A stretch of 30,698 nucleotides of DNA from Bacteroidota bacterium (lineage in GTDB: Bacteria > Bacteroidota > Ignavibacteria > Tepidaquicellales > Tepidaquicellaceae), in NCBI GenBank assembly GCA_003519545.1, contig DOWN01000016.1, forward strand, positions 1 through 30,698. The letters run 5' to 3'. Position 1 is the first letter of the stretch. Every line of letters begins with the position of its first letter. The notes below the pieces were generated by a model. The model searched no databases. It was not told the DNA's origin and saw nothing but the letters and a program-made list of their open reading frames with translations. Shown piece after piece: positions 1 through 17,875 of the stretch. Both the position numbers and the translations under genes were made by a program.

Positions 1-4
1 GCTA

Positions 5-520
5 TTGGCAGAAAGCTTAGTATTAGATAAGTCATTATCAAAACAACAACAATACGAATCACTTCTCCCCCAGATATTTTCTCTGATATCAGATGAGAAC
101 AATATAATCGCAATTCTATCAAATATTTCGGCTGCTTTAAAAGATTCCTTTGATTCATTCTCCTGGGTGGGTTTTTATTTCCTTAATAATAATTCCGGTG
201 AATTAATTCTCGGTCCATTTCAAGGAAAAGTTGCCTGTTCACGTTTACCGTCAGGCAAAGGCGTCTGCCATGCTGCTCTTATTAAGAATGAAACCGTTAT
301 TGTAGAAGATGTTCATAATTTTGAAGGGCATATTGCTTGTGATTCTGGTTCCAATTCGGAAATTGTTGTTCCAATTATTTATAAGGATGAAAAAATCGGT
401 GTGCTTGATATAGACAGTTATGAATTAAATAATTTTGATGAAACAGATAAAATATATTTGGAAAAACTGATTAAAAAGATTAATGAAAAAATATATTTAA
501 TTAAAAAAATGTATAATTAA
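5..520 (+). CDS. msrC: GAF-domain free methionine-(R)-sulfoxide reductase (fRMsr/YebR family)
   Basis: 171 aa, TTG start. Motifs WVGFY, LILGPFQGKVAC, GKGVC, HIACD and SEIVVP with all three family cysteines; LDIDS near the C-terminus. Confidence 0.9.
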   Translation: MAESLVLDKSLSKQQQYESLLPQIFSLISDENNIIAILSNISAALKDSFDSFSWVGFYFLNNNSGELILGPFQGKVACSRLPSGKGVCHAALIKNETVIVEDVHNFEGHIACDSGSNSEIVVPIIYKDEKIGVLDIDSYELNNFDETDKIYLEKLIKKINEKIYLIKKMYN

Positions 521-527
521 CGGTAAT

Positions 528-809
528 ATGAATAAGCAGACATTAATAAATAAGATTTTATTCAAGACAAGTTTAGACAGAAAAACTTCTGATCAGATTA
601 TAGACAGACTATTTGATGTTATAAAAAAAGAAATTATAAGCGGAAATAAAATAGAAATTGAAGGATTCGGAAAATTTGAAAAAATTCATAAAAAGATGTT
701 GAGAAAAGCGAATAAGAAAAGAAAAGTTGAAGAACTATTACCACCGAGAGATAAAGTTAAATTTGAGCCTTCTGAAAATTTAATAGAGGAACTGAATTCT
801 AAAAATTGA
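528..809 (+). CDS. HU/IHF-family DNA-binding protein, divergent (HU-CCDC81-like arm)
   Basis: 93 aa basic protein. MNKQTLI helix, IEIEGFGKFE and LLPPRDKVKFEPS; lacks the canonical GRNPxTG arm motif. Confidence 0.85.
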   Translation: MNKQTLINKILFKTSLDRKTSDQIIDRLFDVIKKEIISGNKIEIEGFGKFEKIHKKMLRKANKKRKVEELLPPRDKVKFEPSENLIEELNSKN

Positions 810-2974
810 AAAAAGAAGAACTTGTAAATATTGTTGTATCTGAATTTGGAGTTGATAAAATTGTCGCGACAGATTTTATTGACAATCTTTTTTCAGTTAT
901 AAATTCAGGTTTTAAAAAAGGAAAAAGACTGAATATTCCTGAGTTTGGAAAATTTATTCTTGTTTCCAAAAAAAATGAAAATAACGAAACCGTAAAAAGT
1001 ATTTCATTTTCACCCGTTAAGAAATTTTCTTTTGATGTCAATTCACGATTTAATAATTTAAATCCAATACCTGTTGCACTTCTGCTAAATCAAAAAGATG
1101 ATAGTCCTGAATATTATGATTTTGAACTTGATGATGATGTGATTGAAGTTTTTAAAGATGAGGAAACGGAGACTGAAACGGAAATTAAAGTTACTGAAAC
1201 ACCCGAAACTAAATCAATAGAAGATGAATCAGAAATTAAAGAGAAATCAGAAATTCAATCTCATTTAGAAAATGTTTCTACGGAAATTGAACAGAAAACA
1301 GTTACGGGTGATGAAGAATCAAAAGATGATTTAGATAATCTTATTGAAAAGAGAAGAAAATCATTTTTTGATTCTGACAGATATTTAAAAGGTAAATCAT
1401 TTGAGAGCGAAGAACCAAGTATCTCGGATAAAATTATAAGTGATTCATTAACAGATGACAAAAATTTAATTAGTGAGAGCGAAGATGTAATTGAATCTGT
1501 AAAAACAGATGATCCTCTCTCCGGCTCGGAGACTCCTTCTGAAAATGATTTAATAAAAAAACTTTCCGAACTTGATTTAAATTTTTCAAACTTACAGTCT
1601 CAGATAGAAAACAGTGTTGACAGTGAGATTGAGAATAAAGATTTAACTCAATCAAAGACAGAATCCGAAGAGAAAAAAGATGATGACTTATTTAAAGGAA
1701 TTGATATAAATAAAATTCAGGATGAGATTAATGCAAAGTTAAAAGAGACTTTCAAATCCGGAGATGATAATGATTTTATCAAAGATAAACTTCAGGACAA
1801 TAAAGAATTAAAAGACGATTTTGAAAAAACTGAATTAAATAAACCGGATGAACCCGAGATTAAATCTGATGAACCAAAAATTTCTTTTGATGATGTATTT
1901 GAAGATAAAGACAAAATAAAACCGGTTTCAGAATCAAAAGATGATGAAGAAATCAAAATTCCTGATATAGATTTTCAAAAAATATTTTCTGAAAACGTTT
2001 CCGAAACTCATACACAGGATACATCAGGAGATTTAAGTGAAACTTTCGAAGGTTCAGATATTTTAATTCCCGATGATATAAAAAAACTGCACAGTGAAAT
2101 TGAAACAGAAAAACCTGACACTGAAAAATCTCTTATACCGGAGGATGATGATTTTAATTTTATAAAAAATTACAGCGATATTTTTGAAAATAAATCTGAT
2201 GATGAAATTAAAGAGACCATAGAGGATAATGGAAATCCGGTTGATTTGCCACCTGTATATACAAGACCACCTGAAGAAGAAAAAGAAAGTAATAAAATTT
2301 TTTCCTTATCGGTTTTACTGGTTATAGTGATTACTGTTTTGGTATTTGCCACCACATATTTTCTCTTAACTTCAGATTTATTCAGTCCGAAAAGATTGCC
2401 GGTGATAACTGATACTTTAACAACTCAACAACAGAATATAACAGGACAAGACACAACTTTAAAAACTACGCCTTCAGATACTTCCAAAATAAAAATTATT
2501 GGCGGAGATACTTTCAGATTAAATGAAACGGAAATTCAAAAATCAAATGAAACCATTAGAGATACAGTAAATACACAAAAAGAGCAACCGGTAACCAATA
2601 ATAATCAACAGACACAACAGCAAACAACACAGCAGAATCAAACACAACAACAAACAAATAATCAACAAACAACTGCAAATAATACAAATCAAGAATCAGG
2701 ATATCGAAATTTAAAACCGGGTGAAGAAGAACAAATCAACGATCCTGCAAACGGAGTTGTTTATGTAAGAACAACAGACGGGGTTTTTATTCAGACAGGT
2801 TCATTTAAGTCAAAAGCAGATGCAGATAAAAAAGCAGGAGCATTACAAAAATCGGGCTTAAACATTCAAATAAAAGAAGCCAACTTAGGTGAAAAAGGTG
2901 TTTGGTTCAGAGTTCGTGCAGGAAAATTTTCTTCTGTTGAAGAAGCAAAAAATAATGTAACCAAATTAAAATGA
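806..2974 (+). CDS. HU-like N-terminal domain + ~400 aa acidic linker + single TM helix + Q/T/N linker + C-terminal SPOR domain
   Basis: TTG start overlaps the upstream TGA (TTGA). HU-like LNIPEFGKF...SISFSPVKK; TM IFSLSVLLVIVITVLVFATTYFLL (~2297-2368); SPOR-type VFIQTGSFKSKADA...GVWFRVRAGKFSSVEEAK (~2783-2971). Confidence 0.85.
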   Translation: MKKEELVNIVVSEFGVDKIVATDFIDNLFSVINSGFKKGKRLNIPEFGKFILVSKKNENNETVKSISFSPVKKFSFDVNSRFNNLNPIPVALLLNQKDDSPEYYDFELDDDVIEVFKDEETETETEIKVTETPETKSIEDESEIKEKSEIQSHLENVSTEIEQKTVTGDEESKDDLDNLIEKRRKSFFDSDRYLKGKSFESEEPSISDKIISDSLTDDKNLISESEDVIESVKTDDPLSGSETPSENDLIKKLSELDLNFSNLQSQIENSVDSEIENKDLTQSKTESEEKKDDDLFKGIDINKIQDEINAKLKETFKSGDDNDFIKDKLQDNKELKDDFEKTELNKPDEPEIKSDEPKISFDDVFEDKDKIKPVSESKDDEEIKIPDIDFQKIFSENVSETHTQDTSGDLSETFEGSDILIPDDIKKLHSEIETEKPDTEKSLIPEDDDFNFIKNYSDIFENKSDDEIKETIEDNGNPVDLPPVYTRPPEEEKESNKIFSLSVLLVIVITVLVFATTYFLLTSDLFSPKRLPVITDTLTTQQQNITGQDTTLKTTPSDTSKIKIIGGDTFRLNETEIQKSNETIRDTVNTQKEQPVTNNNQQTQQQTTQQNQTQQQTNNQQTTANNTNQESGYRNLKPGEEEQINDPANGVVYVRTTDGVFIQTGSFKSKADADKKAGALQKSGLNIQIKEANLGEKGVWFRVRAGKFSSVEEAKNNVTKLK
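2600..2693 (+). repeat. Low-complexity CAA/ACA/AAT-rich tract encoding a Q/T/N linker
   Basis: Encodes NNNQQTQQQTTQQNQTQQQTNNQQTTANNTNQ just upstream of the SPOR domain. Confidence 0.8.
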
Positions 2975-3040
2975 GTTAAACTCATTTATAAACCATTATA
3001 AAAACAGATATTAATAATCACGGATATATCCCAAATTACA

Positions 3041-3069
3041 TTGAAATTCCTTTAATTATTGAATATATT
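3041..3069 (+). promoter_or_regulatory. Putative sigma70-type promoter for the peroxiredoxin gene
   Basis: TTGAAA (3041-3046), 17-bp spacer, TATATT (3064-3069), 32 bp before the ATG at 3102. The AT-rich background lowers specificity. Confidence 0.5.
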
Positions 3070-3101
3070 TAATGTTCAATAAATAATAATTTAAATATTC
3101 T

Positions 3102-3587
3102 ATGGGTTTAGCGGTCGGTGATAATGCTCCGCATTTTACTTTAAAAAGCAAAAATTTAAACGGTGAAGTTAAAGATATTTCACTTTCTGATTATAAAGGA
3201 AAAAAGTTAGTTATTTTGTTCTATCCTCAGTCTTTCACTGGAGTTTGCACAGATGAAATGTGTAATGTTTCAGATGGATTAAATGATTATTTAAATCTTG
3301 GTGCTGATGTGATTGCGATAAGTGTGGATTCGATTTTCACACAGGATGCCTGGTCAAAAGCAAATAATATCAAAATTCCTTTATTGAGTGATTTTAACAA
3401 AGAAGTTATTGAAAAATATGGCACCCGTTATCCTGATGGTGGATTTGTTCACAATATGAATGGTGTTTCAAAAAGAGCGGCATTTGTAGTTGATAAGGAT
3501 GGTGTTATAAGATACACTCAAATCTTAGAATCTGCGGGTGACTTACCTGATTTTAATGCTATAAAAGAAACTTTAAAATCTCTTTAA
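3102..3587 (+). CDS. Peroxiredoxin (AhpC/TSA family, AhpE/PrxQ-like)
   Basis: FYPQSFTGVCTDEMC contains the PxxxTxxC active site plus a second Cys five residues later; conserved Arg in SKRAAFVVDKDGVIRY. Confidence 0.92.
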   Translation: MGLAVGDNAPHFTLKSKNLNGEVKDISLSDYKGKKLVILFYPQSFTGVCTDEMCNVSDGLNDYLNLGADVIAISVDSIFTQDAWSKANNIKIPLLSDFNKEVIEKYGTRYPDGGFVHNMNGVSKRAAFVVDKDGVIRYTQILESAGDLPDFNAIKETLKSL

Positions 3588-3614
3588 AATATTTTTGAGC
3601 GGGATAAGTTATTA

Positions 3615-4547
3615 ATGAAAATTGTCAGAACAGGTGATGAAATCAATTATGATAAAAAAAGTGTAATAACAGTCGGGACGTTTGATGGAGTTCATCTCGG
3701 ACATAAAGAAATTTTAAAAGTTCTAAACGTTGTAAAAGAAAATAAAGGATTGAGAAGTGTAGTTGTAACTTTTGAACCTCATCCGCAAATCGTTCTTAAA
3801 AATAAGGATAAAGATATAAAAATTTTATCCACCACAGAAGAAAAACTTGAGATTTTTAAATCCTCCGGAATTGATTTAGTTTACATTATAAACTTTACCA
3901 AAGAGTTTTCACTTACGTCTGCTGAAGATTTTTATAAATCTTACTTGATAGACAGCATTGGAATTTCCGATTTAGTTTTGGGTTATGATCATATGTTCGG
4001 AAAAAACCGTGAAGGTAACTTTGATTTACTTTCGGAAATTTCCGGAAAATTTCAGTTTAATGTTGATAAAGTGAATGAGTTCACGCTTAACGGTGAGCAT
4101 ATCAGCAGCACAGTGATAAGAAAACTTTTGTTATCCGGCGAAATTGAAAAAGCAAACGAAATGCTAGGACGTGAATATGAACTTTCAGGCACGGTCGTTG
4201 AAGGATTTAAAAAAGGTAGGGAGTTGGGATATCCAACGGCAAATATTAAACCGGATTCTGAATATAAACTTCTGCCCAAAAACGGAATTTATACAGTGAA
4301 AGTGTTAGTTGAAGGAGAAAGATTAGGCGGAATGATGAGCATTGGAAAAAATCCGACAGTTTCAGATTCTGAAGATATTAAAATTGAAGTAAATATTTTT
4401 AATTTTGACAGAGATATTTACGGAAAAAAAATAAAAATAAATTTTTTAAGTTATATAAGGGAAGAAAAGAAATTTGAAACCCTTGATGAATTAATTTCAG
4501 AAATGAAAAAAGATAAAGAAGTTTCATTAAAAAAAATAAATAAGTAA
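3615..4547 (+). CDS. ribF: Bifunctional riboflavin kinase / FAD synthetase
   Basis: VGTFDGVHLGH, GYDHMFGKNREG, ISSTVIR, GRELGYPTAN, SIGKNPT, IEVNIFNF. Confidence 0.97.
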   Translation: MKIVRTGDEINYDKKSVITVGTFDGVHLGHKEILKVLNVVKENKGLRSVVVTFEPHPQIVLKNKDKDIKILSTTEEKLEIFKSSGIDLVYIINFTKEFSLTSAEDFYKSYLIDSIGISDLVLGYDHMFGKNREGNFDLLSEISGKFQFNVDKVNEFTLNGEHISSTVIRKLLLSGEIEKANEMLGREYELSGTVVEGFKKGRELGYPTANIKPDSEYKLLPKNGIYTVKVLVEGERLGGMMSIGKNPTVSDSEDIKIEVNIFNFDRDIYGKKIKINFLSYIREEKKFETLDELISEMKKDKEVSLKKINK

Positions 4548-4863: not shown

Positions 4864-6963
4864 ATGATAATAAAAAAAAGCATTGAGATAGGTGGAAAAA
4901 CACTGACTCTCGAAACGGGAAGACTTGCAAAACAAGCCAATGGGGCTGTTTTAATTTCGCTGAATGATAATGTAGTTTTATGTACAGCAACTGCAAAAGA
5001 TGAAGCGGCTGAAGGGCAAGATTTTTTTCCGTTAACGGTAGATTACCGTGAAAAGACAGCATCAATGGGAAAAATTCCCGGCGGATTTTTAAAAAGAGAA
5101 GGAAGACCATCCGATAAAGAAGTTCTTAACTCAAGATTAATAGACAGACCTATCAGACCTATGTTTCCTGAACATTATTTATGCGAAACACAGGTAGTAG
5201 CAACTTTATATTCCAGTGAAGGTGATTTTGATGCAGGCGTAATAGGTTGCATCGGTTCATCAGCCGCGTTATTAATTTCCGATATTCCTTTTTCAACTCC
5301 CGTTTCTGAAGTAAGTGTTACAAGAGTTAACGGTGAACTGATTGTATTCCCAACAAGCGAACAGGTTTCAGCAGGTGATTATGAAATAGCAGTAGCGGGA
5401 ACCAAAGATTCAATTCTTATGGTGGAAGGTGAAGCAAAGGAAATTTCAGAAACTGAATTTATGGAAGCACTTAACTTTGCTCACTCTCATATAAAAATAT
5501 TATGTGAATTTCAGGAGTCATTCGCAAAAGAAATTAATGTGAAGAAAAGAGAAGTAGCAACTCCTGAATCTAACAATGAGTTAATTTCTGAAGTTAAATC
5601 TCTTGTGCTTGAAGATATAAGAGCATGGCAAAGAGGAGTATTGACCAAAGAAGAAAGAAAAGCAAGAAACAAAGAAATTCACGAAAAAGCAGAATCAACT
5701 TTACTTGAAAAATATCCCGAGTTACAGGATAAAATTCACAGCACAATAAATGATATTGAGTATTATGAAATGAGAGAGATGATATTAAATGAAAATAAAA
5801 GACTGGATGGAAGAACAACAAGAGACATAAGAAATATAAACTGTGAAATTAGTGTTCTGCCAAGAACGCACGGTTCAGCGTTGTTCACAAGAGGTGAAAC
5901 TCAAAGTTTAACAACCGTAACACTCGGAACGAAAAGAGATGAACAGATAATAGACGGTACAAAAATTGATACGACTAAAAAATTTATGTTACATTATAAC
6001 TTCCCTTCGTTTAGCACCGGTGAAGTAGGCGGAAGACCGGGACCAGGCAGAAGAGAAATCGGACATGGAAACTTAGCAGAGCGAGCATTAAAAAATATGA
6101 CGCCTGATGATGTAGAATTTCCTTATACAATCAGAATTGTTTCTGATATTCTTGAATCGAACGGATCATCTTCAATGGCTACAGTTTGTGCAGGTTCTCT
6201 TGCTCTTATGGATGCAGGTGTTCCAACAAAAAAACCTGTTGCCGGTATAGCAATGGGCTTGATTAAAGAAGGTGACAGAACTGCAATTCTATCTGATATA
6301 TTAGGTGATGAAGATCATTTAGGTGATATGGATTTTAAAGTTGCTGGAACAGTTGACGGTATTACTGCGATTCAAATGGATATAAAAATCCAGGGAATTT
6401 CATTTGATATAATGGAGAAAGCACTTGCACAGGCAAAGGATGGAAGACTACATATTCTTGGAATTATGAATCAGACAATTGAGAAACCAAAAGAAAATAT
6501 TTCACAATATGCACCTCATTTATTCTCGATGACAATTCCTGTTGATATGATTGGTATGTTAATCGGTCCGGGTGGAAAAAATATTAAAAACATTATCGCA
6601 ACAAGCGGTGCTGATGTTGATATTGATGATACAGGAAAAATTACAATTGCAGCAGTCTCTCCTACATCCGCAGATATTGCGAGAAAAATGATTTCAAGAA
6701 TGACAGAAGTTCCAGAAGTAGGGAAAACTTATGAAGGAATTGTTAAAGGTATGAAAGACTTTGGTGCTTTTGTTGAGTTCTTACCGGGCAAAGAAGGATT
6801 ACTTCATATTTCAGAAATTGCACACGAAAGAACAAAAGCAGTAAGTGATGTTTTAAAAATGGGAATGGAAGTAAATGTTAAACTCATAGGAATTGATGAT
6901 CAAGGCAAGTTTAAACTTTCCAGAAAAGCACTCTTACCAAAACCAGGTCCTTCAAAAGACTAA
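4864..6963 (+). CDS. pnp: Polyribonucleotide nucleotidyltransferase (PNPase)
   Basis: ETGRLAKQANG, FFPLTVDY, RLIDRPIRPMF, RREIGHG, SNGSSSMA, DHLGDMDFKVAG; KH (IGPGGK) and S1 (GLLHISE) domains. Confidence 0.99.
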   Translation: MIIKKSIEIGGKTLTLETGRLAKQANGAVLISLNDNVVLCTATAKDEAAEGQDFFPLTVDYREKTASMGKIPGGFLKREGRPSDKEVLNSRLIDRPIRPMFPEHYLCETQVVATLYSSEGDFDAGVIGCIGSSAALLISDIPFSTPVSEVSVTRVNGELIVFPTSEQVSAGDYEIAVAGTKDSILMVEGEAKEISETEFMEALNFAHSHIKILCEFQESFAKEINVKKREVATPESNNELISEVKSLVLEDIRAWQRGVLTKEERKARNKEIHEKAESTLLEKYPELQDKIHSTINDIEYYEMREMILNENKRLDGRTTRDIRNINCEISVLPRTHGSALFTRGETQSLTTVTLGTKRDEQIIDGTKIDTTKKFMLHYNFPSFSTGEVGGRPGPGRREIGHGNLAERALKNMTPDDVEFPYTIRIVSDILESNGSSSMATVCAGSLALMDAGVPTKKPVAGIAMGLIKEGDRTAILSDILGDEDHLGDMDFKVAGTVDGITAIQMDIKIQGISFDIMEKALAQAKDGRLHILGIMNQTIEKPKENISQYAPHLFSMTIPVDMIGMLIGPGGKNIKNIIATSGADVDIDDTGKITIAAVSPTSADIARKMISRMTEVPEVGKTYEGIVKGMKDFGAFVEFLPGKEGLLHISEIAHERTKAVSDVLKMGMEVNVKLIGIDDQGKFKLSRKALLPKPGPSKD

Positions 6964-8364: not shown

Positions 8365-9462
8365 ATGAAACTTCTATTTACTGTAATCATTTCCCTGATT
8401 ATATCATCAAATTCATTTTCACAATATTCAAATCCTGAAAGTGTAACTTATGATCCTGTCGGAAAAAATTATTACATTTCTAACACTCTTTCACAAAAAA
8501 TTGTTAAAAGAGACCCTTCGGGAACTGTAACAGACTTTGCAACTGTCGGTTCTTCAATTTATGGTGTGACATATTATAACGGAAATATTTATGTAGCCAA
8601 TGGAAACAGAATCAGAGGGTATAGCATTGCAACCGGAACACAGGTATTTCTTGATACTGTAACAGGTGCAACTTTTTTGAACGGTATTGCGATTGATTCA
8701 ACTACCGGAATTTTATACGCTTCAAACTTTGCATCAGGTTTGAATGCAAGAATATATAAAGTAAATTTAAATAACGGCGAATCAAATGCTTGGGCTAATC
8801 TCCCAAGACAACCAAACGGTGTTTATGTGGATAAAGCAAGAAACAGAGTTTTAGTTTGTTCTTGGGGAGCAAATGCTGTTATTATGGGAGTTCCAATAAG
8901 TGATTCAACATCTGTCAGTACACTCATAACTACTCCTTATGCAAATCTTGACGGAATTAAACTTGACAGAAATGATCACGTTTATATTTCTGTTTATTCT
9001 TCAACAGGTTCAGTAGTAAGATATGATATTAATTTTTCATTTCCTGCTTTCGTAGTCGCAAGCGGATTTTCAAATCCGGCTGATATATATGTGAACAGAT
9101 GGACCGATACTCTTGTTGTTCCAAGTGCAAATACAAACACCGTATTATTTTTCCCGTTATCAATTCCGACAAATATTTCTCAGGTAAACGGAGTAATAAG
9201 TGATTTTAAATTAAATCAAAATTATCCAAATCCATTTAACCCTGAAACTAAAATTTCATTTTCTGTATTTTCAAAAGGAGTTGTAAATTTATCAGTATAT
9301 GATATTTCCGGGAAATTAATTTCGACACTTATTAACAGCGAATTAAACGCAGGTGAATATGAATATAATTTTAAGTCAAACGGTTTACCTTCCGGAATGT
9401 ATTTTTATAAATTAAAATCAGGTAATTTTACAGAAACAAAAATGATGACTTTAATAAAATAG
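8365..9462 (+). CDS. Secreted SMP-30/gluconolactonase-like beta-propeller with T9SS C-terminal sorting domain
   Basis: Signal peptide MKLLFTVIISLIISSNSFSQ; blade motifs NPESV, FLNGIAID, QPNGV, NLDGIKLD, NPADI; CTD LNQNYPNPFNPETKISF...LPSGMYFYKL...KMMTLIK. Confidence 0.8.
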   Translation: MKLLFTVIISLIISSNSFSQYSNPESVTYDPVGKNYYISNTLSQKIVKRDPSGTVTDFATVGSSIYGVTYYNGNIYVANGNRIRGYSIATGTQVFLDTVTGATFLNGIAIDSTTGILYASNFASGLNARIYKVNLNNGESNAWANLPRQPNGVYVDKARNRVLVCSWGANAVIMGVPISDSTSVSTLITTPYANLDGIKLDRNDHVYISVYSSTGSVVRYDINFSFPAFVVASGFSNPADIYVNRWTDTLVVPSANTNTVLFFPLSIPTNISQVNGVISDFKLNQNYPNPFNPETKISFSVFSKGVVNLSVYDISGKLISTLINSELNAGEYEYNFKSNGLPSGMYFYKLKSGNFTETKMMTLIK

Positions 9463-15436: not shown

Positions 15437-17875
15437 TTACTCCGGTATATATTTTAATGCTTTTTCTTTATACTCATTCAGTAGTTTTATAGATTTCTCT
15501 TTATTATCAGTTTCTACATTTAAGTGAATTATATTTCTGTCTTTATCAGGAATAAATAAAACTGTGTCAGTTTCGCTTAACATAATTCTAACTCCGTCTA
15601 TCAATAATTGTTTTTTATCAATATTCTCTTCCATAAATTTTCTCATCACTTTGCCTTTTTCTTCTTTAGGGCAATTGAGATTTTCTTTTTCCATATAAAG
15701 ATGAGGAGTTGTCTTATCAAGTTCCTGTAAATTTACATTTGATTTTGCAATCAGTTCTAAAATTTTTGCGATAGAAAACATTCCGTCTGTTGCATATAAA
15801 AACTCAGGAAATAAAAAGCCGCCCATCACCCCACCGACAAACTTTACATCCTTATCATCACACGCAGCCATCATTGCATAATGAGAATCTTTCACTCTCA
15901 CAACCTCAACTCCAAATTCTTTTGCAACCAAATCAACTTCATTCGTTGCCTGAACCGGAACTGCAACTTTTTTTATTCCGGGATTTGCCATCAAAAACAT
16001 TTTGAGAACAAGCACAAGAAATCTGTGACCGTCAAGTTTAACTCCGTCTGAGGTAACGAGCCAAATTTTTTCTCCGCCTGCGTCTATCATAAACCCTAAA
16101 TCGTAATCAAGTGATTTAATTACATAAGTGAAATTATCAAATGCCTTGTTAAACTCTGCAACAGACCTCGTAATTTTTTCCTTATCAAGGTGAGCTGAGA
16201 GAGAAACAATTTCACAGTTTAATTCACCGAGTATATTGGGAAAAATTGTAGCCGTTATTCCGTAACTGTAGTCAATAACAAGTTTAAATTTTTTCTTCCT
16301 GATTGCTTCTACATCCAGTTTACTTAAGTATAAACTTTTATATTTTTCATTCGTTCTTTCCGGGAATGTCATCTCGCCTACGTCATAAAACGCGGCTCTC
16401 TGATACTCTTCCGAAAAGAATAATCTTTCGATTGACTTTGTTTTATTACTTGATAAGTCTTTTCCATCTTTATCAAAAAATATTATGTCGGTTGTTGCTT
16501 TATCAAATGGAGATTTTCTTACAAAAATTCCTCCTGACCCAGATCCACTCTTAAGTTCCTGTCTTAACATCGGTATCGGTATCACTTGTAAATCCAATAC
16601 ATCAATACCCGCAGATAACAACCCGCTTGATATGGCACGTTTTATCATATTCGAAATATCATCTATGTCCCTGCCGATTAAAATTCGTTTGTTCTCTCCA
16701 ACAAATGCTCCATATACAGAACCAAGTTTAGCGGCAAACTCAGGGTTTACCTGAAGATTTGATAAACCGGAAATTCTCGACTCGATAAATAATTCATTAA
16801 AAAATGTATCTTCATAAATTAAACTCTTCGTTATCTTTGCATTGTTATCAATTTTTTTATTATCCCAAATTCTTAAACTTGAACTTACAAAAACATTTTT
16901 TCCAAAGTCACAGTTATTACCGATGAATACATAATCATTAATTCTCGTATTCTGTCCAAAGTTACAGTTATTACCTATTACATCAAATAATAATGATACT
17001 TTTGAATCAAGATTTATATTTTTCCAAAGAACTGAATTTCTGATTATGCTGTCATCTCCAATAATGCAATTATCACCAATAATACTGTTTTCAATTGTTA
17101 CATTATTTCCAATTTTAATATTTTTCCCAAAGCAGTTTCCGTTTTTATCTGCTTCTTTTATATAATCCAAATCACCTTTGAGTGCTTCAAGATTTGCAAT
17201 AATATATTCTTCAAGATTTCCGACATCTCTCCAGTAACCTTCACATCTGTGTCCGTATAAGGGAATATTTTCATTCAACAATTTTGGAAATAAATCTTTG
17301 GAGAAATCAAAGTTTTCATTTTTAGGAATGAAATTAAAAATTTCTTTATTAAAAAAATATATTCCTGTATTGATTGTATCAGAAAAAACTTCTGACGAAG
17401 AAGGTTTCTCGAGAAACCTGATAATCTTTCCCTGTTCATCAGTCAGAACTATTCCAAACTGTAAAGGATTTTCAGCGGAGTAAAGACTTATTGTTGCAGT
17501 TGCATTTTTATCGTTATGAAATTTTGCAACTTCAGTTAAATTAAAATCTGTTAAAACATCACCGCTGATAACAATAAATTTATCATCAATAAATTCTTCG
17601 GCAAATTTCACAGCACCGGCAGTTCCGTAATCTGCATCAGGAATTATATACCTAATGTTGACACCATATTCTTTTCCGTCGCCAAAAAAATTTTTAATTT
17701 TTTCGGGCATAAAATATAAGAGCATTACATAGTCAGTAATCCCGTGAAGTTTGAGCAGATTAAAAATATGCTCAAGCATCGGTTTATTCACAACCGGAAC
17801 CATTGGTTTAGGAATATCATTCGTGAGTGGTCTCAGTCTTGTTCCAAAACCACCTGCCATTATTACGGCTTGCAC
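15437..17875 (-). CDS. Sugar-phosphate nucleotidyltransferase (mannose-1-P guanylyltransferase-like) + left-handed beta-helix + degenerate phosphohexomutase-like domain
   Basis: GTG start. [44 protein letters not shown]; hexapeptide repeats; PMM-like C-terminal half ([12 protein letters not shown]) with eroded catalytic motifs. Confidence 0.88.

What the first reader, a model, noticed from the sequence alone, without database searches (positions are those of the whole stretch)
528..2974. Coupled HU + HU-TM-SPOR pair: candidate nucleoid-to-septal-peptidoglycan tether, in split form
Seen: a 93-aa HU-like gene overlaps (TTGA) a 722-aa gene with a second HU-like domain, a long cytoplasmic acidic spacer, one TM helix and a C-terminal SPOR domain. 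Both HU domains keep the G/E-FGKF strand but lack the intercalating GRNPxTG arm. Established: HU works as a dimer, SPOR domains bind denuded glycan strands enriched at the division septum, and HU-CCDC81-type proteins with TM plus peptidoglycan-binding domains have been predicted computationally in Bacteroidota. Inference: the small HU supplies the partner subunit, so a soluble + membrane-anchored heterodimer would physically link the chromosome to the septal wall, a segregation/occlusion system distinct from SlmA/Noc/MatP. I know of no experimental characterisation of this split arrangement.
Basis: partly seen in the sequence, partly recalled or inferred. Interest (0 to 1): 0.72.

Follow-up and report, generated by a model that had tools for sequence, protein, structure and literature searches.

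The report
Membrane-anchored HU pair with SPOR anchor
Two overlapping genes in an uncultured Ignavibacteria bacterium encode a small HU-type protein and a second HU domain joined by a long acidic tether to a membrane helix and a cell-wall-binding SPOR domain; this probable chromosome-to-wall link was predicted by computer analysis in 2017 and is still untested, so it is a well-preserved new member and not a new kind.

Summary
A 93-aa HU gene (528-809) overlaps by 4 nt a 722-aa gene (806-2974) encoding HU domain, about 400-aa acidic spacer (net about -73), one TM helix, Q/N/T-rich linker and SPOR domain. One nuance: the small HU keeps a full-length arm and has lost only the RNPxTG tip; the long protein's arm is truncated.

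Pairing is well supported:
- the pair is kept in four families of the class, usually with overlapping stop and start codons;
- several genomes fuse the two HU types in gene order;
- the heterodimer model scores 0.80 against a best control of 0.00.

DNA binding and septal localisation are inferred. The split operon, the heterodimer and the nucleoid-envelope tether were all proposed by Burroughs et al. 2017 (PMC5499826), and I found no experimental work. This scan has reported similar pairs on other DNA (e.g. e1-5234414, a LysM version).

New details:
- split plus SPOR form, which the 2017 paper says does not occur;
- Pfam HU-CCDC81 models do not hit, and profiles place both domains between canonical HU and that clade;
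- the SPOR domain lacks its last strand and has an N-terminal hairpin;
- two conserved short motifs in the spacer;
- a conserved operon with a free methionine-R-sulfoxide reductase and, in many relatives, a TPR-SPOR protein.

Verdict: new member of a known, predicted kind.

The parts
5..520 (+). GAF-domain gene, an ortholog of free methionine-R-sulfoxide reductase. It ends 7 nt before the small HU gene and is a conserved upstream operon member in relatives. The contig begins here, so anything further upstream is unknown.
   Evidence: Pfam GAF_2 41 bits. PDB: 3ksf 6.6e-46, 3mmh 'Methionine-R-sulfoxide reductase' 5.3e-41, E. coli YebR 1vhm 6.3e-39. A GAF gene sits directly upstream of the small HU in 23 of 34 fetched loci, often with overlapping stop and start codons.
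528..809 (+). Stand-alone divergent HU (93 aa, 'S type'). Full-length arm, no RNPxTG tip, conserved LLPP(K/R)DK motif on the return strand, net charge +8.
   Evidence: Pfam Bac_DNA_binding 64 bits, 1-90 of 90. The family profile aligns gap-free to Thermotoga HU 1riy. Arm 26 residues, R61 basic in 0% and P63 in 0% of 18 family members. It is an extra paralog: the genome has two canonical HUs at 97 bits.
806..809 (+). TTGA overlap: TTG start of the long gene, TGA stop of the small gene (translational coupling).
   Evidence: Overlaps of 4-11 nt in 11 of 20 relatives' loci, gaps of 4-30 nt in 5 more.
806..1075 (+). HU domain of the long protein ('B type', res 1-90). Arm cut to 15 residues, followed by a conserved tail FSPvKKF..vN..F.nL (N79 invariant).
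   Evidence: Pfam Bac_DNA_binding 30.9 bits. Alignments. In the heterodimer model V78/N79 contact D75/K76 of the small HU.
1076..2296 (+). Cytoplasmic acidic spacer (res 91-497), mostly unconserved and probably disordered; about 31% D+E, net about -73.
   Evidence: In relatives the spacer is 264-825 aa and always net negative (-17 to -112).
1883..1900 (+). Spacer motif B, first copy (SFDDVF, res 360-365).
   Evidence: Pattern [STNP][FYML][DNSE][DE][IVFY][FL] found in 16 of 20 family spacers against a mean of 0.43 (max 3) in 1000 composition-preserving shuffles. The pattern was chosen after seeing the data.
2066..2101 (+). Spacer motif A (IPDDIKKLHSEI, res 421-432), about 75 residues before the TM helix.
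   Evidence: Pattern found in 11 of 20 family spacers, across two families, against a mean of 0.017 (max 1) in shuffles. The pattern was chosen after seeing the data.
2168..2185 (+). Spacer motif B, second copy (NYSDIF, res 455-460).
   Evidence: In the fused soluble forms the same motif lies near the C-terminus.
2297..2371 (+). Single transmembrane helix (about res 498-522).
   Evidence: The only Kyte-Doolittle 19-residue windows above 1.6, maximum 2.85. One TM at the equivalent place in most relatives.
2372..2707 (+). Periplasmic Q/N/T-rich low-complexity linker (res 523-634).
   Evidence: 48% Q/N/T over res 526-655. pLDDT under 50 in the fold for the part that was modelled. Unconserved.
2708..2974 (+). 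SPOR domain variant (res 635-722). Two extra N-terminal strands (642-646, 651-655), then beta1-alpha1-beta2-beta3-alpha2. The protein ends after alpha2 with no beta4.
   Evidence: Pfam SPOR 42.3 bits, profile positions 4-65 of 76. AF2 pLDDT above 90. RlpA SPOR 6i05/6i09: Z 8.0/7.9, rmsd 1.8 A, 63 residues; model 67-130 against chain 266-329. The N-terminal extension is conserved and the C-terminal end is the same in 16 homologs.

Best explanation
The two genes make one asymmetric HU-type heterodimer.

- The small protein contributes a full-length but non-intercalating arm.
- The long protein contributes a short-armed HU domain that is tied to the inner membrane by an acidic, probably disordered chain of about 400 residues.
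- The long protein crosses the membrane once (N-terminus in, C-terminus out) and ends in a SPOR domain. SPOR domains bind peptidoglycan glycan strands stripped of peptides, which are enriched at the division septum.
- The head, basic in this organism (small HU core +7, long-protein HU domain +3), most likely binds nucleoid DNA non-specifically and without the sharp proline-driven bend of HU/IHF. The complex would then hold chromosome DNA to the cell wall and membrane, preferentially at division sites.
- Two conserved short motifs in the membrane-proximal part of the spacer probably dock further cytoplasmic partners.

Shown here: domain content, gene coupling, conservation, natural fusions, a confident model of the heterodimer, and a SPOR-like fold.

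Inferred: actual dimerisation, DNA binding, glycan binding, septal localisation and any role in segregation.
For: 1. Domains and topology.

2. The pair is conserved.
- A long homolog occurs in 21 of 24 other same-family genomes, and as short fused forms in 2 of the remaining 3.
- All 11 sampled genomes of the sister family have it, and long frames with an adjacent small HU frame occur in families f14 and f20.
- The small HU lies directly upstream in 16 of 20 fetched loci, overlapping by 4-11 nt in 11.

3. Natural fusions of the small-type domain followed by the long-type domain, in gene order: L053, L054, L056, L100, L101, G007, G016. In every locus where both positions could be read, the two types occur together.

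4. Complex prediction: score 0.80 against a best control of 0.00. That mark was reached by 58 of 80 solved complexes and 2 of 110 mismatched pairs. Partner pLDDT at least 86; the runs agree in at least 95% of contacts. Family-specific conserved residues are predicted to touch (small HU D75/K76 with long-protein V78/N79).

5. The AF2 model of a fused form (best-model pLDDT 77, pTM 0.67) matches single-chain IHF 2iif/2iie over 184 columns.

6. The small HU is an extra paralog beside two canonical HUs.

7. SPOR: Pfam 42 bits; RlpA SPOR Z 8.0, rmsd 1.8 A over 63 residues; Q71 and R110 of the fold region are nearly invariant.

8. The window's head is basic.

9. The same reading was reached independently for this architecture by Burroughs et al. 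2017.
Against: - R61 and the intercalating P63 are lost in all 18 small HUs. Net charge of the head is not conserved: small HU core -4 to +20, long-protein HU domain -6 to +7. DNA binding may therefore not be the conserved function.
- The fused form's best structural match is a chain of a eukaryotic doublet microtubule (8snb_1K, E 2.9e-5). CCDC81-type tandem HU proteins bind proteins there, and the 2017 paper itself suspects protein binding for two-domain versions.
- HU and IHF dimers are solved, so the complex score may partly come from memory and says nothing about specificity against the genome's canonical HUs.
- The SPOR domain lacks its last strand, so glycan binding is not assured.
- Some relatives have no SPOR domain on the long protein (tail-anchored or soluble forms).
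- A net -73 spacer next to a basic head could mask it.
Confidence: 0.55

Rival explanations
1. Same heterodimer and same membrane/SPOR anchoring, but the HU head no longer binds DNA. It binds a protein, and together with the two conserved spacer motifs it makes the complex a trans-envelope scaffold of the division or envelope machinery (a DamX/FtsN-like role) and not a chromosome tether.
For: - Loss of R61 and P63, and non-conserved, sometimes negative head charge.
- Arm reduced to 6 residues in fused forms.
- The fused module's best structural matches include doublet-microtubule chains. Entry 8G2Z contains a CCDC81 homolog that binds CFAP52.
- Burroughs 2017 suggests protein binding for two-domain forms.
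- Conserved short motifs in the spacer.
- The operon often includes a TPR-SPOR protein.
- The only FtsN-model match in this 88%-complete genome is this protein, at 27.6 bits.
Against: - The window's own head is clearly basic (+7 and +3), with a +8 arm of full length.
- Basic positions K3, K9, R55, K64 and K74 are kept in at least 60% of small HUs.
- Both domains are closer to canonical HU than to HU-CCDC81 by profile comparison.
- No partner protein has been identified.
Confidence: 0.27
2. A membrane-tethered DNA-binding regulator. The SPOR domain senses cell-wall state, and the HU head is sequestered at the membrane or released by proteolysis to change DNA structure or transcription.
For: An N-terminal DNA-binding domain, one TM helix and a periplasmic sensor-like domain is the layout of membrane-bound one-component regulators (general knowledge). 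A long protease-accessible linker is present.
Against: - HU folds are generally non-specific.
- There is no recognisable protease site or partner protease in the operon.
- The spacer length varies from 264 to 825 aa, and tail-anchored or soluble variants exist. That fits a tether or scaffold better than a signalling device.
Confidence: 0.06
3. The adjacency has no functional meaning. The small HU is an ordinary nucleoid protein that forms homodimers, and the long protein is a SPOR division protein with a vestigial HU-like N-terminus.
For: Both proteins match the general HU Pfam family. HU proteins usually form homodimers (general knowledge).
Against: - Overlapping stop and start codons are kept across four families.
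- Natural fusions occur in gene order.
- The two types always occur together where both positions could be read.
- Family-specific motifs meet in the model.
- The genome already has two canonical HUs.
Confidence: 0.04

Closest known systems
Bacterial HU-CCDC81-clade membrane proteins with an operonic stand-alone HU (Burroughs, Kaur, Zhang, Aravind 2017, PMC5499826; Pfam PF18174/PF18175)
   Same: HU domain with truncated arm, disordered segment, one TM helix, extracellular peptidoglycan-binding domain (SPOR or LysM). Single-HU versions sit in a two-gene operon with a classical-looking HU. A heterodimer and a nucleoid-envelope tether were proposed. Found in the Bacteroidetes-Chlorobi lineage.
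   Different: - The paper states that SPOR (FtsN) versions always carry two HU domains and that the split form goes with LysM. Here the split form carries SPOR, in four families.
- Pfam HU-CCDC81_bac models do not hit the window's proteins or its genome.
- By hhalign both domains are nearer canonical HU (scores 73 and 76) than HU-CCDC81 domains (38 and 45).
- The spacer is much longer and strongly acidic.
- Bona fide members found here are 316-434 aa.
IHF alpha/beta and HU alpha/beta heterodimers (DNABII, PF00216)
   Same: Same fold. Two paralogous subunits are predicted to form an intertwined dimer, and the fused form superposes on engineered single-chain IHF.
   Different: One arm is truncated and the other lacks the intercalating proline and R61. 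One subunit is membrane-anchored. The genes overlap.
SPOR division proteins FtsN, DamX, DedD and RlpA of Proteobacteria
   Same: Bitopic N-in/C-out layout, Q-rich periplasmic linker and C-terminal SPOR domain. The closest solved structure is RlpA SPOR bound to denuded glycan. DamX also has a long cytoplasmic region (general knowledge).
   Different: FtsN model only 24.9-27.6 bits against a cutoff of 107.65. The cytoplasmic part is an HU domain plus an acidic spacer. The SPOR domain lacks beta4 and has an extra N-terminal hairpin.
Noc (Bacillus), SlmA and MatP (E. coli): proteins that couple nucleoid and division site
   Same: Proposed function only: a DNA-binding protein that links the chromosome to the membrane or the divisome. 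Noc recruits DNA to the membrane (cited).
   Different: No sequence or fold relation (no such Pfam hits). Noc binds the membrane through an amphipathic helix and has specific DNA sites. Here the link would reach through the membrane to the wall.
Eukaryotic CCDC81 / Tetrahymena IJ34 (tandem-HU microtubule inner proteins)
   Same: The fused two-HU module of close relatives has doublet-microtubule chains among its best structural matches (8snb_1K, 9e78, 9e2g, 8g2z). The sub-threshold Pfam hits to HU-CCDC81_euk_1 (E 0.005) and _euk_2 (E 0.11) for the window are to its small HU. Relatives' long proteins give sub-threshold HU-CCDC81_euk and _bac_2 hits.
   Different: Those are eukaryotic, single-chain and bind tubulin or CFAP52, not DNA. 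I could not verify which chains in those entries are CCDC81.

Membership tests
HU/IHF (DNABII, Pfam PF00216) | Match to the family model above the curated cutoff | tested here: met
   Small protein 64 bits, long protein 30.9 bits, cutoff 22.4.
HU/IHF (DNABII, Pfam PF00216) | Long beta-ribbon arm with RNPxTG tip and intercalating proline | tested here: not met
   The small HU keeps the arm length (26 residues) but has no P63 or R61. The long protein's arm is 15 residues and has no proline.
HU/IHF (DNABII, Pfam PF00216) | Intertwined dimer | tested here: inconclusive
   The model supports a heterodimer: 0.80 against a best control of 0.00, a mark reached by 58 of 80 solved complexes and 2 of 110 mismatched pairs. 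The fused form resembles single-chain IHF. This is prediction only, and similar complexes are solved.
Bacterial HU-CCDC81 clade (PF18174/PF18175; Burroughs 2017) | Match to the HU-CCDC81_bac models above the curated cutoff | tested here: not met
   No hit at E up to 1 for either window protein. No PF18175 match at E up to 0.001 in the own genome. Relatives reach 18.7-25.8 bits against a cutoff of 35.
Bacterial HU-CCDC81 clade (PF18174/PF18175; Burroughs 2017) | Truncated tip of the beta-hairpin arm | tested here: met
   Long protein: 15 against 26 residues, and 6 in fused relatives. This is not true of the small HU, in line with the paper's description of the operonic partner.
Bacterial HU-CCDC81 clade (PF18174/PF18175; Burroughs 2017) | Disordered segment, TM helix and extracellular peptidoglycan-binding domain; for single-HU forms, an operonic stand-alone HU | tested here: met
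Bacterial HU-CCDC81 clade (PF18174/PF18175; Burroughs 2017) | Closer by profile to HU-CCDC81 domains than to canonical HU | tested here: not met
   hhalign:
- small HU against canonical HU 73.0, against bona fide domain 1 37.6 (91.7%, PPK motifs aligned);
- long-protein domain against canonical HU 75.8, against bona fide domain 2 45.2 (94.9%);
- bona fide domain 1 against canonical HU only 3% probability, so the small HU bridges the two.
SPOR domain (PF05036) | Match above the curated cutoff | tested here: met
   42.3 bits against a cutoff of 21, profile positions 4-65 of 76.
SPOR domain (PF05036) | Complete beta-alpha-beta-beta-alpha-beta fold | tested here: inconclusive
   The model matches RlpA SPOR at Z 8.0, rmsd 1.8 A over 63 residues (chain 266-329), but ends after alpha2. 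Two conserved N-terminal strands are extra and may replace beta4.
SPOR domain (PF05036) | Binds denuded glycan strands and localises to the septum | not testable with these tools
   Needs a sacculus-binding assay and localisation.
FtsN (TIGR02223) | Match above the curated cutoff | tested here: not met
   24.9 bits and 27.6 bits against a cutoff of 107.65. The match covers only the linker and SPOR part.

The most novel reading that the evidence does not exclude
The Ignavibacteria pair is a still-split, little-derived stage of the lineage that produced the tandem HU-CCDC81 proteins of Bacteroidia and, by transfer, the eukaryotic CCDC81 microtubule inner proteins. On this reading it works not as a simple DNA tether but as a trans-envelope coupling device. 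The SPOR variant reads denuded septal peptidoglycan outside. Inside, the one-armed HU head and two conserved docking motifs on the acidic spacer bring the nucleoid and cytoplasmic division or segregation proteins together. That would give an FtsN/DamX-like role to a lineage in which no true FtsN was found.
Probability: 0.2. Interest if true: 0.7.

Novelty: new member of a known kind. Interest (0 to 1): 0.4.

Why it matters
How bacteria of the Bacteroidota/Ignavibacteria group coordinate the chromosome with the closing septum is unknown. A protein complex that reaches from DNA through the membrane to septal peptidoglycan would be a direct physical answer, and different in principle from Noc, SlmA or MatP.

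The idea dates from 2017 and has never been tested. This locus and its relatives give it a firmer footing: natural fusions, motifs that are conserved together and predicted to touch, and a graded series from full-armed split forms to fused armless ones. They also supply concrete handles for experiments, namely a compact head for binding assays, a SPOR variant, and two short docking motifs.

The locus also bears on the bacterial origin of the eukaryotic CCDC81 fold.

Tried and rejected
- **The search for related loci with alignment A1:** failed because no stretch was conserved enough. Repeating it with the single protein worked.
- **Promoter and terminator scan of 1-3700:** at chance level (20 found against 18.5 expected; 2 against 1.1). 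It says nothing about operon boundaries.
- **NCBIfam on the GAF protein:** no hit. Its identity came from the PDB sequence search.
- **First narrow pattern for spacer motif A:** found only close relatives. I widened it after inspecting juxtamembrane segments, so the shuffle statistics are after the fact.
- **Profile search of PDB sequences with the fused form:** did not reach the doublet-microtubule chains. Their identity as CCDC81 homologs rests on a paper about entry 8G2Z only.
- **Model coordinates:** not exposed. The placement of the extra SPOR strands and the exact packing of the fused module could not be inspected.
- **FtsN membership:** considered and rejected.
- **Literature:** four searches found no experimental study of HU-TM-SPOR or HU-CCDC81 bacterial proteins in the held library. 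Subscription journals are largely outside it.
Full report
**1. What is there**

The window carries a 93-aa ORF at 528-809 and a 722-aa ORF at 806-2974 on the + strand. They overlap by the four bases TTGA. Pfam places the small protein in Bac_DNA_binding over the entire profile (64 bits). In the long protein it finds Bac_DNA_binding at residues 1-82 (30.9 bits) and SPOR at residues 659-722 (42.3 bits).

Between these two domains lie:
- about 400 residues with 31% Asp+Glu and a net charge of about -73;
- one hydrophobic helix at about residues 498-522;
- a Q/N/T-rich stretch.

The HU domain starts at residue 1 with no signal peptide, and SPOR is an extracytoplasmic domain, so the topology must be N-in/C-out. 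The TTG start is credible because the N-terminus aligns exactly with ATG-started homologs.

**2. The two HU domains are not alike**

I aligned them with the genome's own canonical HUs.
- The small HU family keeps an arm of canonical length (26 residues) and aligns gap-free with Thermotoga HU. It has lost R61 and the intercalating P63 in all 18 members. It has gained a conserved LLPPKDK motif on the returning strand.
- The long protein's arm is cut to 14-15 residues, and to 6 in some relatives. It is followed by a conserved tail, FSPvKKF..vN..F.nL, with an invariant Asn.

The head would therefore have a single, non-intercalating arm. The genome also has two canonical HU genes (97 bits each) and a fourth paralog, so the small HU is an extra, specialised copy.

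**3. Do they pair?**

Four lines of evidence say yes.
- **Conservation.** A long homolog is present in 21 of 24 other genomes of the family. Two of the remaining three carry a short fused form. All 11 sampled genomes of the sister family have a long frame, and families f14 and f20 have a long frame with an adjacent small HU frame.
- **Coupling.** In 16 of 20 fetched loci the small HU lies directly upstream, overlapping by 4-11 nt in 11 and separated by 4-30 nt in 5.
- **Natural fusions.** Several genomes encode small-type and long-type domains in one polypeptide in the same order as the genes: L053, L054, L056, L100, L101, G007, G016. In every locus where both positions could be read, the two types occur together. 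L070 is cut by a contig end just upstream of the long gene.
- **Predicted complex.** The complex prediction scored 0.80 against a best control of 0.00. That mark was reached by 58 of 80 solved complexes and 2 of 110 mismatched pairs. Partner pLDDT was at least 86, and the runs agreed in at least 95% of contacts. The family-specific motifs touch each other (D75/K76 of the small HU with V78/N79 of the long protein).

HU and IHF dimers are solved, so this pass shows likeness and not specificity. An AF2 model of a fused form (best model pLDDT 77, pTM 0.67; the other four models 53-62) matches single-chain IHF over 184 columns.

**4. The wall end**

The C-terminal 90 residues fold with pLDDT above 90. 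They superpose on RlpA SPOR, including its complex with denuded glycan, at Z 8.0/7.9 and rmsd 1.8 A over 63 residues. CwlC and DedD follow.

The match covers RlpA residues 266-329 and model residues 67-130. The protein ends after helix alpha2, at Pfam position 65 of 76, and has two extra conserved N-terminal strands. All close relatives end the same way. In families f14 and f20 the SPOR sequence continues past alpha2, where the final strand would sit. Whether the N-terminal hairpin takes the place of the missing strand could not be checked.

**5. The spacer is not featureless**

It is unalignable across the family and always net negative (-17 to -112). Even so, two short motifs recur in its membrane-proximal part:
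- IP..h..LH.EI, in 11 of 20 proteins against 0.017 expected from shuffles;
- [SN][FY][DNS][DE][IV]F, in 16 of 20 against 0.43 expected.

The patterns were written after seeing the data. They do span two families, however, and in soluble fused forms motif B lies near the C-terminus, next to a separate TM-SPOR gene. I read them as docking sites for unknown partners.

**6. The operon is larger than the finding**

The GAF gene that ends 7 nt before the small HU is a clear ortholog of free methionine-R-sulfoxide reductase (3ksf 6.6e-46, 3mmh, YebR). A GAF gene sits in the same place in 23 of 34 fetched loci, frequently with overlapping stop and start codons. In many loci it is preceded by a TPR-SPOR protein of 535-733 aa.

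The contig starts at the GAF gene, so the window cannot show what lies upstream. A same-genus relative has an unrelated, opposite-strand gene there. I see no functional reason for the reductase link and record it as unexplained.

**7. Does the head bind DNA?**

In this organism the small HU is basic (core +7, arm +8) and the long protein's HU domain is +3, comparable with the canonical paralogs (+8, +16). Across the family the charges range from -4 to +20 and from -6 to +7. Some classical contact positions are kept (K3, R55, K64, K74), while R61 and P63 are not.

The fused module's best structural match is a chain of a sperm doublet microtubule (8snb_1K, E 2.9e-5). Similar chains from three other organisms follow. 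Entry 8G2Z is known to contain a CCDC81 homolog that binds CFAP52.

DNA binding without sharp bending is therefore my preferred reading for this locus, but a protein-binding head is a serious rival.

**8. Comparison with what is known**

Burroughs, Kaur, Zhang and Aravind (2017, PMC5499826) described bacterial HU-CCDC81 proteins with these features:
- a disordered segment, a TM helix and a SPOR or LysM domain;
- single-HU versions that sit in a two-gene operon with a classical-looking HU;
- a proposed heterodimer, and anchoring of the nucleoid to the envelope.

No experimental follow-up was found in the held library.

This locus differs in three ways:
- That paper says SPOR versions always have two HU domains, whereas here the split form with SPOR is the rule in four families.
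- The Pfam HU-CCDC81_bac models miss the window's proteins and genome.
- By hhalign both domains are nearer canonical HU (73.0 and 75.8) than bona fide HU-CCDC81 domains (37.6 and 45.2). The small HU nevertheless bridges to HU-CCDC81 domain 1, which is itself undetectable from canonical HU (3%), with the PPK motifs aligned.

Taken together, the sequence of forms runs as follows: f14/f20 (long protein matches the full small-HU profile), then f1/f2 (short arm on the long protein), then fused forms (6-residue arm), then Bacteroidia HU-CCDC81. This looks like a graded series, but no rooted tree was built.

The organism is an uncultured Ignavibacteria MAG, and public records name the long protein only 'SPOR domain-containing protein'. 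Earlier reports of this scan reached the same conclusion for a LysM version on other DNA.

**9. Verdict**

This is a real, conserved, well-preserved example of a predicted but untested kind of system, with several new details. It is neither a new kind nor an artefact. Interest is moderate: the biology would be important if shown, but the hypothesis is published and the host is uncultured.

Noticed in passing
window 5-520: The free methionine-R-sulfoxide reductase (GAF) gene is tightly coupled upstream of the HU pair, here and in 23 of 34 fetched relatives' loci. No functional reason is apparent. In the window an AhpC/TSA peroxiredoxin follows the pair at 3102-3587, as it does in the loci of two relatives.
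   Followed up: partly
L075:3257-5224 (also L061-L073): A 535-733-aa TPR plus SPOR protein precedes the GAF gene in many Ignavibacteria loci, giving a four-gene block: TPR-SPOR, GAF, small HU, long HU-TM-SPOR. The window's contig starts too late to show whether it has one.
   Followed up: partly
L100:69-995 and 1010-3343; L101:6-1046 and 1064-3451: In genomes with fused two-HU proteins that lack a predicted TM helix, a separate TM-SPOR gene of the same SPOR subtype (N-terminal hairpin, no last strand) lies directly upstream. The soluble protein ends near spacer motif B, which hints that motif B docks onto the membrane partner.
   Followed up: no
L053:2904-3503 (fused two-HU module, model m6d3f8099951d): Its best structural match is a chain of the sea-urchin sperm doublet microtubule (8snb_1K). 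Leishmania, Trypanosoma and Tetrahymena doublet chains are also in the top ten, probably CCDC81-type inner proteins. Chain identity is unverified.
   Followed up: partly
G000:C206:4107-4379 (L004): A further HU paralog in a 159-aa frame has N- and C-terminal charged extensions and a near-canonical arm tip (ARNLKTGE).
   Followed up: no
G000:C265:1969-2193 and 5613-5879 (L008, L001): One of the two canonical HU genes lies about 3.4 kb from another SPOR-domain gene (310-aa frame) on the same contig.
   Followed up: no
L050:3004-3934: In one relative about 930 nt, apparently holding other reading frames, separate the small HU gene from the long gene. This is the only uncoupled case seen.
   Followed up: no
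window 15437-17875 (-): An 812-aa fusion of a sugar-nucleotidyl transferase with a phosphoglucomutase/phosphomannomutase. The same fusion lies near the HU operon in a distant relative (L075).
   Followed up: no
window 8365-9462: An SMP-30/gluconolactonase-like protein with a type IX secretion C-terminal sorting domain, in keeping with a Bacteroidota-group host.
   Followed up: no
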